Position numbers: made by a program
Assembly: GCA_965113315.1 (NCBI GenBank)
Contig: OZ220376.1
Strand: one strand, 5' to 3'
Source of the DNA: Podarcis vaucheri
Taxonomy: Eukaryota
DNA length: 64,000 nucleotides
Shown: positions 3,001-9,000 of the stretch, piece after piece
Position numbering within the stretch: position 1 is the first letter of the stretch
Layout of the letters: every line of letters begins with the position of its first letter

Positions 3001-6000
3001 TTTAAAGGTTCAGAACATTAATACGGTGGTACCTCAGGTTACATATGCTTCAGGTTACATACACTTCAGGTTACAGACTCCACTAACCCAGAAATAGTAC
3101 CTCGAGTTAAGAACTTTGCTTCAGGATGACAACAGAAATCGTGCTCCGGCGGTGCAGCAGCAGCAGGAGGCCCCATTAGCTAAAGTGGTGCTTCAGGTTA
3201 AGAGCAGTTTCAGGTTAAGAACGGACCTCCGGAACAAATTAAGTACTTGACCTGAGGTACCACTGTATGCTCTTATGCACTCTTTTTAAAATAATTTGTT
3301 GCTTCAGCTTTCTTAATTGTATAATGCGAACTGCCAGGTTTTAGTTTCACATTGCCAGGCTATCAAAGATAAGCTATTGTAGAGTTTCCTATCGTGAACT
3401 TTGTCCTTACTAATGGAAGAACTCTTATCTCAGCTGATAGCAGGGAACTGGCCTATGGTGTTTGTTTTGCTTTAGATCTTATTTTTGCATGAACCATTAA
3501 AAAATAACTCTTTAAGATGAGACACGCACCCCTCTATATTTTCTGACTTTAGCCGCACCCATTATTAGCAGTGGGAAGAAATTGTGGAAGGTTTGGCAAA
3601 AACAGCACTGTGTTTCCACTTGTGTATTTACACACCTGTCCCTAGGTATTAGATAGCATTATGATGTGTTCTAGTTTCTCCATGTGCACAGAACATCTGT
3701 CTCTAAAGCAAGCATGCAACTGCTGTTTTTCTCACTAGAATTAATAAACTCTTTCTGTAATCTGATCAATATATCTAACTGATTAGATTAAAGCAGGCAT
3801 TTATTAATGCTTGCTTCACGATTCAATAACATAAACTCCAAACTCAATATGGTTTATTACAAATACACATCTCAAGTGCCTGTTGCCAATTTGTGATTAG
3901 GGCTAATATTTATTCTCTCTTTATTACTGAATGTGATCAGGGGGTGGAAGTGGGTTGGTCCCGATTCCTCACTTTCTTGCCTTAGCACACTAAATGAATG
4001 CTATTTTATGGAAATGTTACTTGAGGCAATAAATTACGAGTGAGATATTCCAGGGCTACTGCAGTGGGTTTTGGTTTCCTTTAGATGAGAGTGCACAGTG
4101 GACATTTAAAGCATTTTGGTAATATTTGTTTCATTTACCAGTATGTCTCTTTCTGAGCTCCCACTTGCTATAACTACTTTTTGTTGGATTCCATGTGGTG
4201 TTTGGTGGCCATGGTGCTTAATCCAGGGAGACCAACAGCATGTGATGGTACAGCCATTGACAGGCAGAGCTACCCCATAACTGGTTGTTAAGAAGAAGAG
4301 GCAGGTGGGGGCTGGCTAAAGGGCAGACTGAGGTTGGTGGCGCAGCGTCCTGCTTGCACCAGCCACCACTGTCGGATATAAATTCTGAACTGAAAACTTA
4401 TCCTGGTCCCCATACCGATGTCTGCAAAAGGAAAGCACGTTAAACCGTGAACATGAAATCTTCCCTTTTGCAGAGGTGGCAGGGCATGCGAGTTCAGGGC
4501 TGGGGCTAACTCCTGTGCATCTGCTGCTCAGATGGATGGACCTAACTTCTGAATAATCATTGTCTTTTAAAAAATAGTCTTTATTAAGTATTTTCTTGTG
4601 GTACAAAAAAATAATAATCTAATAAACAAGGAAAAGTACCTATAGTGTCTCCATATTCAATTCACAGTCTTTTTTACAATTCATTTGCTTTTGGTGTCCT
4701 AAACACCATGTGGTTGGGAAAAAGAAAGGAGAGAGTGGGGGGAAGAGAGTGGGAATAATTATCTTACATTTTACTGAATAGTCTTTTTGATATTCTTACT
4801 GGCACAAAACGCTTGCTTAACCTGGAGGTAGGCTGTCTGAATTGTGCATTGCGTTGTAACAATTTGTTGGGTCTCTGGACTGTAATAAAGATTGATTCTT
4901 ACTGGTTGGACTAAATGACTTAAGCATGTCCTACTTTCTAGGTCTTCTGCTCTTTGGAGTACATCCTGTGGCATGTCTGTGATAAAGCCAATCCCCACCC
5001 TTGAGGGGCTACCATCTCTTGTTGATGCTTCAAACTTCCCTTCAGGAACAAGGAACGAGGCCATTATAATCGGGGAACAAAGCAACTGGGTGTACTACAA
5101 TAAGCCTCTTACATTGATTGCCATTGGACTCCTTGTATTTCTTAGTGGGATTGGCCTTTCTGCCTTGCACTTGGTCCACACTGTAGATGTGCCATCTGCC
5201 CTGGGGCCTGTTTGTCTTTCCATTGGACTCATGTTCTTCGTTACAGGAATGGTGTGGCTACCCATTATTAAGCACGCCCTGAGACATGATGGACTTTTAA
5301 GAGGAAGCCCTACAGACTTCAGCGCTTGAGATCCATACTTTTTAAAGTGCTATTTTTTATTATTTTTAGCTTTTTAAATTGCTTTATTGAACTTTTAAAA
5401 ATAACACAAAATCATAGTTATCCATAATAAAAAAAATAAACAACAAAAAAACTATCAATATCTGTTACACTTTATCACAGTCTTCTTTTGGTTCCAGTGA
5501 CATCCCGCCAATTCCATATAACTTTAACTATGGAATTATCCAGCACACTATTCATCTCTGTTTATAATAATTATTTTTCAAAGATAATGTACTTTCTTTA
5601 ACTTATTCAGTGAATTACAGAAGCTATTCAAAGGCTGCCATAGACTTCATATTATTACAATCCTAAATGTAATTTTTAAATAAACCCCATTTATTAAAAA
5701 ATACTTAAGGTGATATCCTGCTTGCAAATATAGCTTTCCCACTATCTTTGGTTTAACAGACATTTGTGCTAAAGGATTTTGCTTTTTCCTATAAATATTG
5801 TGGTCTTCTCCTTTGCGTAAAGGAAACATGCTCACCACTTTCTGTTGTTCCCAAATAAAAGTAGTGCAGCTGTGCATAGAATTTTTCTAATGGGCCAACA
5901 TGACTACCTTAATTTTTTGCCTCTTGAGAAATTTTGCACCTCTAGCAGATATAAACCACCAGAGCTTTTTACAGAAGGAAGAACGGTCCTCCTCTAAGGA

Positions 6001-9000
6001 GGAACCAAACAATGCTTCTGCCAAAAGGCCTGGGGAGAGCTTTTTATATTTCTCCTCCTAAAGTGGATTAGGGGTCCACTTACTTTTATGAACATTTTTA
6101 TTGGCAGTGGTGATAGGGAAAACTAGTAGAGAAGGAAGAGGTCTCATGCCACGTACTGTATTTACTCGAATCTAACGCTCACCTTTTTTTGGCCAAATTA
6201 CATTGCGAAAATTAAGGTGTGCATTTGATTTGATGGTGCTTTAGACTCAAAGACGGTAAAAAAATTTCCTCTGGCAGATTTCCTGTGCCTTTTAAAGATG
6301 AAGTTCAAGCGACTAAGCTTTTGCTTGTACAAATTAGCACCCCCACTGTGTTTCAAGTCATGTTTGATGTTGCTGTACACACCATTACCTGTTGTACACA
6401 CATTACCCCGGCACTGCCACCCCAACTCCTATTCAACAAAGCCATCATCTGCTCATGTGCTGTCATCTTTGTGAGTGGAACAGATGTCTGAAATATACAC
6501 ATCATAGCTTAACCATAGCTTATGTTTTCAAATTGGATGGAAGCTGGTCTGAGGGAAAATGCACCAAGTAGAAGTATTTCTTACGAAACTACAAGATACA
6601 TCTGGATTGTGGAAAATATCATGTGTACTCAGCTCTAAAAGGTGAGAGCACACTGGAGCTGAAGCAAACAGTAATGTATACAGAGTCTCAGTTTCCACAT
6701 TTGTTCCCTTAACTACTGCAATAAATCTATTTTTAAAGAGCCACTAGATTCTTTGTTATTTTTGTTGGGTTAACACAGCTGACCTGCACAAAATATGCTT
6801 CCCCCCCACCCCTGCAACAGCCGATGGAAAAAAGTGCTCTTACCCTGAGGTGTTTTCCTCATGGAACACTAATTCTGATTTTGAAATGGATTTGAACAAA
6901 CTAAACTTCGTTAGGTTGCTTTGAAATACACTTGGCATGGTACAGACCACATAAACAGCTTTCCAAGGAATGAAATGTTTTAAGAACAGTAACCAGGAAT
7001 TCAACAGAATAGCTGCATCTTTATACAAAAATTGAGAGGCTTCACTATGGCTTACTCTTGAACACAGTGATTCTTACTTCTGAGTAAATACGCATAGATG
7101 TTAATACTGCAAGTCCTTCCCTGGTAAGATAAGGATTATCTCACTTCTTTTTCCAAAGCACGAGGTTATTTACGCACAACCCGGTGTAAAGCACTAGCCC
7201 TAAAATAAATTGCAAGAGTCATTCGCAATGATGATGTCCAAAACTGGCCAGAATGCAACTCACAGAATCATAGAGATGGGAGGGTCACCTAGTCCAACCC
7301 CCATGTCAGTGCCAGATTTACGTACAGTATAAGCTAAACATATAAGCTATAGCTTATGGCCCCACTCTCTTGGGGGTCCAAAAAAGAATTAAAGGGGGAA
7401 AAAACCTGGATGTACATTTCCAAAATATAAGAAATATATTTCCTGGATGTACATTTCCAAAATATAAGATAAAAAACTAATAAAATAAAACCTAATAAAC
7501 TAATAAGATATAATAAAAATATATAATAAAATATAATAATAAAACCTAAAAAACTAATAAAATAAGATACAATAAAATATAATAATAAAACCTAATAAAC
7601 TAATAAAAAACTAATAAAATAAAATAAAACAGTGTTTTGTGTTGTATAGGCTCCTATGATGTAAGTAAGGGCCCCTGCCTGCTAGCTTGCTCCCTAAAAT
7701 ATCGCTGGTTTGATCATTTCTATATAAAGGGTGCCTACATTCTGCCTGTGCAAATGACTTTAGATACCTATTAGGTCCATAAATTACCATATAGTATATA
7801 TTCAACACAAAAAACAGCGACAATTTGTTGTTGACAAAGGACAGCTGGACATATAAAGGGCCCCATTACCTTCAGTATTTTAGGGTCTCATCAAACCTAA
7901 ATCCGGCCCTGCCCCGTGTCATGCTCAGTCCCACAGCCCTTGAGACCACGAGTCTCATACTCCACCGACTCCACTATCCCTGGGGTGCGTTTTGCACAAA
8001 CACACACGCGTGTGCTGCTCTCTCCCCTTTGGGTTGGGAAGGAAAAGCGATGGGGAACCGCCTGAGGCGTCTGGGAAGGAGAGTCCACGAGGGGACACCT
8101 GTCGGGGTGGCGGCGGTGGGAGGGACGCGCGCGCCGCCTCAAGGTGCGCGCGCCCCGCCCCGCCAGGTGCGAGGAGGAGGAGGGCGTGTCCTTCCCGGTC
8201 CCTCAGGTAAAGGCGGGATTCTCTCCTGCTGCTCGCCCAGCATGGCTGTGGCGCTGGGGAAGGCGCCGCCGCCTCAGGCGGGGAGCTTGTCCCCCTCAGG
8301 GGCGGCAGGTGTGGCCTCAGGTGCGCAGGGCGGGCCGGCGCCGCTCCAGGTGCTCCAAGTGCCCGGCGCCGTCCCCTCGGACGGGCTGCTCTCGCCTTGG
8401 TCCAGCGCAGTCTCCTTGTCAAGCGCCTTCGGCTCCCCTCCGGAGTCGGCCACCTCTCTGCCCGCCGCCTCGGCGCCCATGGCCTCGCTGGGCGGGGGGC
8501 TGGGCCGGTGCGCGGGCGCCTTCTGGATGGCGCTGCTCTTCGACGCGGTGGGCCTGGCCATCCTGCTGGTGGGCGTCTTCGTCGACGTCTTCTTCGCCGA
8601 CCTGCTCATCTACGGCGGCGGCGTGGGCATCTTCTTCAGCCTCCTCTGGTGGGTCTTCTGGTACGTGGGCAACCTGGAGGTGCCCGCCGCCGAGCTGCAG
8701 GACGACGTGGGGCTCCGGCGCCACTCGACCAAGAAGAAGAAGGCGGCGCCCGTGGGGGCGACCGCAGGCCACGGCCTGGCCCGGCTCGTCAGGAACCTCA
8801 GCGTGCGCTTCTCGGGGCCCTTCGCCGCCTTCTCCCGGTCCACCGAGTGCCAGCCGGGCTCCGTCAGGAGGGCTCACTTCGCCAGCGCCCCGTCGGTGTC
8901 GGTGGCCACGACGGTATCCAGCTCGGTGGAGCTGCAGGCGGCCTGAGGAGGAGGAGGAGGAGGAAGCAGGCGAGGCGAGGACGGACGGCGAGGCCGGGAG

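What the first reader, a model, noticed from the sequence alone, without database searches (positions are those of the whole stretch)
4973..8946. Tandem PIRT-like + TMEM238-like cassette beside RRN3: candidate extra paralogous module of small two-TM proteins
Seen: two intact small two-TM genes on the same strand, 3 kb apart, directly upstream of RRN3-NTAN1-PDXDC1. Recalled: in human, PIRT and TMEM238L neighbour SHISA6 (17p), TMEM238 neighbours SHISA7 (19q), and the RRN3/NTAN1/PDXDC1 region (16p13) is near SHISA9 with no PIRT or TMEM238 gene known to me. Inference: this is a whole-genome-duplication ohnolog of a SHISA-PIRT-TMEM238 block, kept in reptiles and lost in mammals. It would give lizards a second, uncharacterised PIRT-type TRP-channel regulator, potentially relevant to thermosensing in an ectotherm.
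Basis: partly seen in the sequence, partly recalled or inferred. Interest (0 to 1): 0.75.

Follow-up and report, generated by a model that had tools for sequence, protein, structure and literature searches.

The report
Lizard PIRT-like and TMEM238-like gene pair
Next to the housekeeping gene RRN3, this lizard carries two intact genes for tiny membrane proteins; one is an old sister lineage of PIRT, the helper of pain and temperature channels, which mammals seem to lack and which databases predict but nobody has studied.

Summary
ORF 4973..5329 (+) encodes a 118-aa PIRT-family protein with two membrane helices (Pfam PF15099, E 4e-13). ORF 8242 or 8479..8946 (+) encodes a TMEM238-family protein (PF15125, E 6e-24) inside a CpG island. 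RRN3 (+), NTAN1 (+) and PDXDC1 (-) follow.

The PIRT-like gene is not PIRT itself. It belongs to a separate lineage with named members from sharks, ray-finned fishes, lungfish, frogs, turtles, alligator, kiwi, tinamou and squamates. None of the 23 named hits is a mammal or a neognath bird. An AU test rejects orthology with canonical-type PIRT (p 5.5e-5).

The TMEM238-like gene has one orthologue per sauropsid species. Its relation to mammalian TMEM238 and TMEM238L could not be tested.

The pair mirrors the mammalian TMEM238L-PIRT-SHISA6 block, so an ancient block duplication is the most economical origin. Whole-genome duplication, SHISA9 synteny and a separate canonical PIRT in this lizard remain untested.

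The basic tail that binds PIP2 in PIRT is weak in squamates (net +2 against +6 to +7). A PIRT-style mechanism is therefore uncertain.

Both genes are already machine-annotated in related species but unstudied. They are new members of known families, of moderate interest.

The parts
4973..5329 (+). PIRT-like coding sequence in a single exon, 118 aa plus stop. The N-terminus is disordered, with membrane helices at about aa 38-68 and 77-99 and a 19-aa tail.
   Evidence: The start (MSVIK) is shared with turtle, alligator and kiwi proteins.
4452..4478 (+). Possible upstream exon piece. It encodes the odd N-terminal peptide of the Podarcis muralis gene model, and the open piece around it has no Met.
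   Evidence: This is weak evidence, resting on one automatic model.
5426..5440 (+). First two poly(A)-signal hexamers, about 100 bases after the PIRT-like stop codon.
   Evidence: pattern match only.
7801..9300 (.). CpG-island-like stretch (GC 0.65, CpG observed/expected 0.81) covering the TMEM238-like gene and its likely promoter.
8242..8946 (+). TMEM238-like coding sequence, long form (234 aa from Met108). The short form starts at 8479 (155 aa). The membrane hairpin is at aa 8-34 and 40-65 of the short form.
16901..17600 (.). CpG-island-like stretch, probably the RRN3 promoter and first exon.
   Evidence: The assignment to RRN3 is inferred from position only.
20764..30520 (+). RRN3 exons: 5 ORF pieces covering Pfam RRN3 profile positions 67 to 542.
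   Evidence: Exons were scanned one by one and not joined.
45682..53858 (+). NTAN1 exons: 6 ORF pieces covering Pfam N_Asn_amidohyd positions 2 to 270.
60770..62523 (-). PDXDC1 exons (second central domain). By its direction, the gene's upstream exons should lie further right, towards or beyond the window's end; none was detected there.
   Evidence: 49.2 bits above cut-off; a second piece at 21.5 bits is below cut-off.

Best explanation
The window comes from a lacertid lizard close to Podarcis. It carries two intact genes for small two-pass membrane proteins, and each protein is read from one exon.

Gene 1 (4973..5329) is the lizard orthologue of a second, ancient lineage of the PIRT family. 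That lineage split from canonical PIRT before jawed vertebrates diverged. It persists in cartilaginous and ray-finned fishes, lungfish, frogs, turtles, crocodilians, paleognath birds and squamates. It has no detectable mammalian or neognath member.

Gene 2 (8242/8479..8946) is the lizard orthologue of a sauropsid TMEM238-family gene.

The pair repeats the mammalian arrangement TMEM238L-PIRT beside SHISA6. It is therefore most simply one copy of an old duplicated block, probably from the vertebrate genome duplications, which mammals lost from the RRN3 region.

Mechanism (inferred): the PIRT-like protein acts as a small accessory subunit. It would dock to a partner membrane protein through its highly conserved helical hairpin, above all the second helix. 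Its short, only weakly basic tail makes strong PIP2 binding of the PIRT kind doubtful in lizards. The TMEM238-like protein is a hairpin membrane protein of unknown partner, by analogy with the ER-resident TMEM238L/FORCP.
For: Shown:
- Family membership and intact ORFs.
- Orthologues at 97% (PIRT-like, Podarcis muralis) and 96% (TMEM238-like, P. lilfordi).
- The profile search gave 31 hits. The 23 named ones span sharks to squamates and include no mammal and no neognath bird.
- An exhaustive HMMER search gave 104 representatives, of which 67 were placed in a tree. The only representatives inside the tetrapod part of the window's lineage are turtle, python, Varanus, frog and tinamou.
- In the careful tree the canonical clade has support 100/98 and the window's lineage 96/95. 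Its inner order follows the species tree.
- The AU test rejects grouping the lineage's tetrapods with the canonical-type proteins (delta lnL 56.7, p 5.5e-5).
- Pfam PIRT scores are 43-62 bits for four other members of this lineage (the window protein scores 49.6), against 199, 141 and 133 bits for the canonical type.
- In the TMEM238 tree there is one copy per sauropsid species, in species-tree-like order.
- Mammalian gene orders are TMEM238L, PIRT, SHISA6 (sheep, PMC11836209 passages) and TMEM238, RPL28, UBE2S, SHISA7 (horse, PMC7341496 table passage).
- The second helix and the loop before it hold most of the columns that are invariant from shark to lizard.

Inferred: the block duplication, the loss in mammals and the accessory-subunit role.
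Against: - The canonical clade and the outgroup clade consist of unnamed representatives. That P0101 is a mammalian PIRT, and that six clade members are fishes, rests on my recall and on their divergence, not on a call.
- The AU group was defined after the quick tree had been seen.
- No mammalian TMEM238 or TMEM238L sequence could be brought in. NCBI names the bird orthologues plainly 'TMEM238', so gene 2 may be a plain orthologue of one of them.
- No SHISA gene lies in the window, and bases 1..4900 hold nothing that Pfam detects.
- There are no expression data and no dN/dS.
- The squamate branch is long (stem 0.47) and the basic tail is eroded. This fits relaxed constraint as well as a changed function.
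- The AlphaFold models are of modest confidence (pLDDT 61.9 and 61.6).
Confidence: 0.6

Rival explanations
1. Simple relocation: the two genes are the 1:1 orthologues of mammalian PIRT and TMEM238L (or TMEM238), and they merely sit in a different place in sauropsids.
For: Sources name several members plainly 'phosphoinositide-interacting protein' (turtles, alligator, gar, lungfish) and the bird orthologues 'transmembrane protein 238'. For the TMEM238-like gene no test against mammalian sequences was possible.
Against: For the PIRT-like gene, the trees and the AU test reject it. Pfam scores separate the two kinds. Three canonical-type representatives, each in its own 50%-identity cluster, suggest that canonical PIRT exists in several deep tetrapod lineages besides this one. 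A relocated pair landing beside the RRN3 region, which by my recall is paralogous to 17p, would be a coincidence.
Confidence: 0.1
2. The pair is old, but it arose by a local or segmental duplication followed by translocation, not by whole-genome duplication.
For: The trees date the split only as older than jawed vertebrates. Nothing in the window bears on the mode of duplication.
Against: Two different families are duplicated together in the same order, beside members of the SHISA6/7/9 group. By my recall these lie on chromosome regions that share other four-fold gene families, which is the signature of block or genome duplication.
Confidence: 0.2
3. The lizard PIRT-like gene is under relaxed constraint or on its way to being lost, so it has no present function.
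For: - The basic tail is reduced to net +2, against +5 in fishes.
- Squamate branches are long.
- The gene sits in AT-rich, CpG-poor DNA (GC 0.38-0.39; CpG observed/expected 0.11 in 4500-4999 and 0.27 in 5000-5499).
- There are no neognath members.
- The tinamou branch is long at 0.72.
Against: - The ORF is intact, with the same length (118 aa) and a similar C-terminal end in a lacertid and in Python.
- The hairpin residues that are invariant across all 24 aligned sequences are kept.
- AT-rich, CpG-poor DNA is usual around tissue-specific genes (general knowledge).
Confidence: 0.1

Closest known systems
[quoted passage not shown]
   Same: Same Pfam family. Both have two membrane helices with a disordered N-terminus, as shown by NMR for human PIRT (PMC6773951 passages; model). 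Both share the conserved pattern in the second helix.
   Different: - It is a separate ancient lineage.
- It matches only the hairpin part of the profile (positions 23-107 of 128) at 49.6 bits, against 133-199 bits for the canonical type.
- Its tail is 19 aa with net charge +2 in the first 12 residues, against +6 to +7.
- No separate amphipathic C-terminal helix is predicted (low confidence).
TMEM238L / LINC00675 / FORCP
   Same: Same Pfam family PF15125 and two membrane helices. In mammals it is the direct neighbour of PIRT, as the TMEM238-like gene here is the neighbour of the PIRT-like gene.
   Different: The mammalian protein has 79 aa, sits in the ER and is specific to the gut (PMC7673786 abstract and passages). 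The lizard protein has 155 or 234 aa with a long tail. Orthology was not tested, and at 79 aa the mammalian protein was below the length range of the search.
TMEM238 (beside SHISA7 in mammals)
   Same: Same Pfam family, matched over the whole profile (1-63 of 64). Sources name the bird orthologues of the window's gene 'TMEM238'.
   Different: In horse it lies in the order IL11, TMEM190, TMEM238, RPL28, UBE2S, SHISA7, not beside RRN3. No mammalian sequence was available for a tree.
TMEM100
   Same: It is a small protein that scores 0.90 by language-model features, and one canonical-type PIRT gives a weak TMEM100 match (29.3 bits, below cut-off). That TMEM100 has two membrane helices, and that it regulates TRPA1-TRPV1, are recalled and were not checked.
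   Different: The window's protein gave no Pfam TMEM100 match at E up to 1. It is not a member.

Membership tests
PIRT family (Pfam PF15099) | Profile score above the curated cut-off | tested here: met
   49.6 bits against a cut-off of 30.6, E 4.2e-13. The Atlas's nearest clusters are all PIRT-named.
PIRT family (Pfam PF15099) | Two membrane helices and a disordered N-terminus | tested here: met
   Hydropathy peaks at aa 46-64 and 81-99. The AlphaFold model has helices 38-68 and 77-110 and a low-confidence N-terminus. The orientation in the membrane was not tested.
PIRT proper (orthologue of mammalian PIRT) | Groups with canonical PIRT in a tree | tested here: not met
   It falls in a separate clade (96/95 against 100/98 for the canonical clade). 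The AU test rejects the joint clade, p 5.5e-5. The canonical rows are unnamed.
PIRT proper (function) | Polybasic stretch after the second helix plus an amphipathic C-terminal helix that binds PIP2 and TRPM8 S1-S4 | tested here: not met
   There are 3 K/R and 1 D/E in the first 12 tail residues, against 6-7 K/R and 0 D/E in the canonical tetrapod type. The tail is 19 aa and no separate helix is predicted. The feature itself is taken from PMC6773951.
PIRT proper (function) | Expression in sensory ganglia; binding to and modulation of TRPV1/TRPM8 | not testable with these tools
   No transcript data and no assay were available.
TMEM238 family (Pfam PF15125) | Profile score above the cut-off over the whole domain | tested here: met
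   84.4 bits against a cut-off of 27, profile positions 1-63 of 64. The Atlas shows 14 PF15125 clusters among the 30 hits.
TMEM238 family (Pfam PF15125) | Helical hairpin of two membrane helices | tested here: met
   Helices 8-34 and 40-65, with pLDDT 81-92 over residues 11-60. Hydropathy agrees.
TMEM238 or TMEM238L proper | Orthology to one of the two mammalian genes | not tested
   No mammalian sequence was returned (0 of 31 named hits).
Ohnolog block from the vertebrate genome duplications | The split is older than jawed vertebrates, and both daughter lineages hold fishes and tetrapods | tested here: inconclusive
   The window's lineage holds sharks to squamates. The canonical clade has nine representatives, each from its own 50%-identity cluster, of unknown taxa.
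Ohnolog block from the vertebrate genome duplications | Paralogous neighbours (SHISA9 here, SHISA6 and SHISA7 at the other copies) on paralogous chromosomes | not testable with these tools
   No SHISA domain lies in the window. No vertebrate genome collection was on hand. The mammalian orders come from gene lists in two papers.

The most novel reading that the evidence does not exclude
SHISA, PIRT-type and TMEM238-type genes formed one ancestral three-gene block that the vertebrate genome duplications multiplied. The RRN3-side copy of the PIRT-type gene encodes a channel accessory subunit. It was kept in cold-blooded vertebrates and lost independently in the two warm-blooded lines: mammals and neognath birds, with paleognaths caught part-way. 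On this reading its function is tied to sensing or coping with variable body temperature.
Probability: 0.12. Interest if true: 0.65.

Novelty: new member of a known kind. Interest (0 to 1): 0.4.

Why it matters
PIRT is the only studied member of its family, and it tunes TRPV1 and TRPM8, the heat and cold sensors. A second lineage, conserved for as long as jawed vertebrates have existed and missing from mouse and human, has escaped study because the model mammals lack it. It offers a natural comparison: the hairpin is the same but the tail differs. That comparison could show which part of PIRT does what. It also provides a candidate accessory subunit for sensory or other channels in fishes, amphibians and reptiles.

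The repeated pairing with a TMEM238-type gene beside SHISA genes adds a small, clean marker for reconstructing the 16p/17p/19q paralogous regions.

The gain is modest. Both genes are already predicted in public annotation, and nothing here shows a new kind of mechanism.

Tried and rejected
I replaced it with 437 separate ORF pieces.
The canonical clade, the outgroup clade and the teleost-type clades therefore stay without taxa.
- The window's own three protein versions are not in the collection as exact sequences.
- I tested whether the PIRT and TMEM238 families are old tandem duplicates of each other. The profile-profile comparison gave 1.5% probability over 13 columns, so there is no detectable kinship.
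- A nine-row unnamed clade looked like a third tetrapod paralogue in the quick tree. In the careful tree it nests inside the ray-finned fishes (100/99), so I read it as teleost co-orthologues.
- The literature searches found no paper on a PIRT-like paralogue, and no positional gene list joining TMEM238 or SHISA9 to RRN3 or NTAN1.
- The Atlas searches gave family names only, with no sequences and no taxa below phylum.
- No complex prediction was run, because I do not claim that the two proteins bind each other.
- No fold search was run, because a two-helix hairpin would match too much.
- The Rfam scan found only two tRNA-like hits, away from the genes.
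Full report
**What is there.** The window has no N.

On the + strand, an ATG-to-stop ORF at 4973..5329 encodes 118 aa, and one at 7921..8946 encodes 341 aa. The first scores 49.6 bits against Pfam PIRT (PF15099, cut-off 30.6, E 4.2e-13). It matches its aa 20-101 to profile positions 23-107 of 128. The second scores 84.4 bits against Pfam TMEM238 (PF15125, cut-off 27, E 6.4e-24), with aa 195-257 covering the whole 64-position profile.

The 341-aa frame overshoots the gene, because it runs open through a GC-rich stretch. 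In-frame Mets lie at 8242 (234 aa) and 8479 (155 aa), both followed by G at +4. The Podarcis lilfordi model has 234 aa, which fits a start at the first of these. The extension aligns well in Zootoca and in part in Rhineura. Geckos, birds and fishes have short N-termini. I give both starts.

Hydropathy gives two hydrophobic helices in each protein. The AlphaFold models agree:
- PIRT-like: helices 38-68 and 77-110, disordered N-terminus, mean pLDDT 61.9.
- TMEM238-like: hairpin 8-34 and 40-65 with pLDDT 81-92, then short helices and a disordered tail, mean pLDDT 61.6.

The TMEM238-like gene lies in a CpG-island-like stretch at 7801-9300 (GC 0.65, CpG observed/expected 0.81). The PIRT-like gene lies in AT-rich, CpG-poor DNA.

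**Surroundings.** I cut the rest of the window (outside 4900-9200) into 437 stop-to-stop pieces of 55 aa or more. Each piece was scanned on its own against Pfam.

| Gene | Strand | Span | Pieces above cut-off | Profile positions covered |
|---|---|---|---|---|
| RRN3 | + | 20764..30520 | 5 | 67 to 542 |
| NTAN1 | + | 45682..53858 | 6 | 2 to 270 |
| PDXDC1-like second central domain | - | 60770..62523 | 1 (and 1 below cut-off) | 62-104 and 1-26 of 104 |

Two further matches were below cut-off and look like chance (Hep_core_N and DUF4920, 16.6 bits each). Nothing was detected in 1..4900, in 9200..20700 or in 30600..45600. The gap to the first detected RRN3 exon is about 12 kb. A CpG island at 16901-17600 is probably the RRN3 promoter (inferred).

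**Relatives of the PIRT-like protein.**
- The single-sequence search gave 7 hits: Podarcis muralis 97%, Varanus 66%, three turtles 52-54%, a lungfish and one unnamed hit.
- A profile of these gave 31 hits. The 23 named ones are 3 squamates, 3 turtles, an alligator, kiwi, tinamou, 2 frogs, lungfish, sturgeon, paddlefish (2), bichir, gar, sawfish, skate, elephant shark and 3 teleosts. None of the 23 is a mammal or a neognath bird.
- The 8 unnamed hits sit nearest turtle (1), alligator (1), catfish (5) and an outgroup clade (1).
- A profile of the window's protein and the 23 named hits, run with HMMER over 1.84 billion cluster representatives, gave 104 proteins at E up to 0.001 and 67 at E up to 1e-10.

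I placed 67 of the 104 representatives (those with E up to about 3e-10), the 17 other named proteins and the window's protein in a quick tree of 85 rows. The other 37 representatives were not placed. The tree shows three parts:
- A clade of 9 that holds the proteins with by far the highest Pfam PIRT scores (199, 141 and 133 bits over the full profile, and 60-75 bits for six others).
- A clade of 20 longer proteins of unknown origin.
- A clade of 56 that holds the window's protein.

I then built a careful tree on 46 of the 85 rows, leaving out 26 teleost-type rows and 13 of the 20 long proteins. The canonical-type clade has support 100/98 and the window's lineage 96/95. Inside the window's lineage the order follows the species tree: cartilaginous fishes; then lungfish, frogs, turtles, alligator with kiwi and tinamou, and squamates (98/95); then ray-finned fishes (100/99). 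Nine unnamed rows had looked like a possible third paralogue in the quick tree. In the careful tree they nest inside the ray-finned fishes, so I read them as teleost copies.

Forcing the lineage's tetrapods into one clade with the three canonical-type proteins costs 56.7 log-likelihood units, p-AU 5.5e-5. I named this group after seeing the quick tree, which weakens the test.

No unnamed representative fell inside the tetrapod part of the window's lineage. A mammalian orthologue could hide only inside a cluster at 50% identity or more with a turtle, snake, lizard, frog or tinamou protein.

That P0101 is a mammalian PIRT is my recall of the mammalian protein. That the clade's six divergent members are fishes is a guess.

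**Relatives of the TMEM238-like protein.** The search gave 43 hits among 299 candidates. The 31 named ones are 16 squamates (lacertids at 84-96%), 10 birds, a turtle, an alligator fragment, 2 teleosts and a lamprey. None of the 31 is a mammal.

The 12 unnamed hits sit nearest birds (7), teleosts (3), a snake (1) and a gecko (1, at 63%). They were left out of the tree.

The tree of the 31 named hits plus the window's protein has one copy per species, and its groups fit the species tree as far as it is resolved: geckos; turtle, alligator and birds; other squamates (quick method, 3 starred branches). So the squamate genes named 'TMEM238-like' and the bird genes named 'TMEM238' are orthologues of one another.

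Whether they are orthologues of mammalian TMEM238, of TMEM238L, or of neither could not be tested. The word-based search returned no mammal.

**Origin.** A sheep gene list gives the order TMEM220, a LOC gene, TMEM238L, PIRT, SHISA6, DNAH9 (PMC11836209, passages seen). A human table pairs TMEM238L with PIRT (PMC11603882, passage). A horse list gives IL11, TMEM190, TMEM238, RPL28, UBE2S, SHISA7 (PMC7341496, table passage).

The window gives PIRT-like, then TMEM238-like, then RRN3. A PIRT-family gene and a TMEM238-family gene are therefore direct neighbours in two places, and the PIRT-family members of the two places are old paralogues. The two families show no detectable kinship with each other (hhalign probability 1.5%), so the pairing is not a tandem repeat of one gene.

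The simplest history is one ancestral block copied whole. The following points come from my recall and from no call:
- In human, RRN3/NTAN1/PDXDC1 lie about 2 Mb from SHISA9 on 16p13.
- The regions 16p13, 17p13-p12, 19q13 and 22q share four-fold families such as the non-muscle and smooth-muscle myosin heavy chains and NDE1/NDEL1.

These points make genome duplication the likely mode, but this was not tested here.

**How it may work.** Human PIRT has a disordered N-terminus, two membrane helices, a polybasic stretch and an amphipathic C-terminal helix. The C-terminal part binds PIP2 and the S1-S4 domain of TRPM8 competitively (PMC6773951, passages).

In the window's lineage the most conserved part is the hairpin. 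The invariant and nearly invariant columns lie in the stretch just before helix 1, in the loop and in helix 2. The tail after helix 2 differs between groups:

| Group | Net charge of the first 12 tail residues |
|---|---|
| Canonical tetrapod type | +6 to +7 |
| Fishes of the window's lineage (median) | +5 |
| Other tetrapods and lungfish (median) | +3 |
| All four squamates (median; window +2) | +2 |

The window's tail is 19 aa long and holds two acidic residues. No separate C-terminal helix is predicted (low confidence).

I therefore infer that the protein keeps the docking hairpin of the family. I also infer that the electrostatic PIP2 grip was present in the ancestor and is largely gone in lizards. 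An accessory-subunit role is likely by family analogy. Its partner, and any link to temperature sensing, are open.

For the TMEM238-like protein, the only family member with data is TMEM238L/FORCP. It is an ER-resident, gut-specific 79-aa protein that favours apoptosis under ER stress (PMC7673786, abstract and passages). The lizard protein shares the hairpin. It adds a conserved acidic motif after helix 2 and a long tail.

**Novelty.** Both genes are already predicted in related species under automatic names such as 'uncharacterized protein', 'phosphoinositide-interacting protein-like' and 'transmembrane protein 238-like'. My searches of the held library found no paper on a second PIRT lineage. 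They found no paper linking TMEM238 to RRN3 or SHISA9, none linking SHISA9, NTAN1 and RRN3, and none on duplication of the SHISA6/7/9 group. Subscription journals and supplements were not searchable.

I class the finding as new members of known families. The distribution is notable: the lineage is present from sharks to paleognath birds, and it is absent from the hits for mammals and neognath birds. Yet the neighbouring TMEM238-like gene is found in 10 named neognath species.

**What stayed unchecked.**
- The left neighbour of the window.
- A canonical PIRT in the same lizard.
- The taxa of all unnamed representatives.
- Mammalian TMEM238 and TMEM238L in a tree.
- dN/dS (no orthologous DNA was available) and expression.
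- The collections metagenome contigs and viral contigs, which were closed. The genome collection on hand holds only bacteria and archaea, so it was not used.

Noticed in passing
window 37901-38600 and 42501-43200: Two CpG-island-like stretches lie between the end of RRN3 and the start of NTAN1. They carry ORFs of 145-221 aa on both strands with no Pfam match. They may be promoters of unannotated or non-coding genes.
   Followed up: no
window 27324-27396 (-) and 45311-45369 (+): Two matches to the tRNA model just above the gathering score (30.2 and 37.3 bits). One lies inside an RRN3 intron and one just upstream of NTAN1. They are probably tRNA-derived SINE copies.
   Followed up: no
window 7459-7629: An AT-rich tandem array (periods 5 to 59) lies directly upstream of the CpG island that holds the TMEM238-like gene.
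   Followed up: no
window 4452-4478 (+): The unusual N-terminal peptide of the Podarcis muralis gene model is encoded here, about 500 bases upstream of the PIRT-like ORF. The open piece around it has no Met, and an AG lies in front of codon 6 of the ORF. It may be a 5' exon that the automatic model translated.
   Followed up: partly
window 8242-8478 (+): An in-frame, proline- and alanine-rich N-terminal extension of the TMEM238-like protein. It is present in the lacertid models and in part in Rhineura, but absent from geckos, birds and fishes. It could be a lineage-specific coding extension or an open GC-rich leader.
   Followed up: partly
related proteins: The PIRT-like lineage has kiwi and tinamou members but no neognath bird, and the tinamou branch is long. 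The neighbouring TMEM238-like gene has 10 named neognath members. This suggests that only one gene of the pair was lost in neognaths.
   Followed up: partly
related proteins P0090-P0131: A clade of 20 longer PIRT-family proteins (122-261 aa), many of them with long serine- and asparagine-rich N-termini and similar C-terminal ends. Their taxa are unknown. The Atlas lists an arthropod cluster at 0.89, so the family may reach beyond vertebrates.
   Followed up: no
related proteins, teleost-type clades: Teleost-type rows fall into several separate sub-clades of the window's lineage: 24 rows, 9 rows and 2 rows. This suggests several teleost copies, and their origin was not resolved.
   Followed up: no
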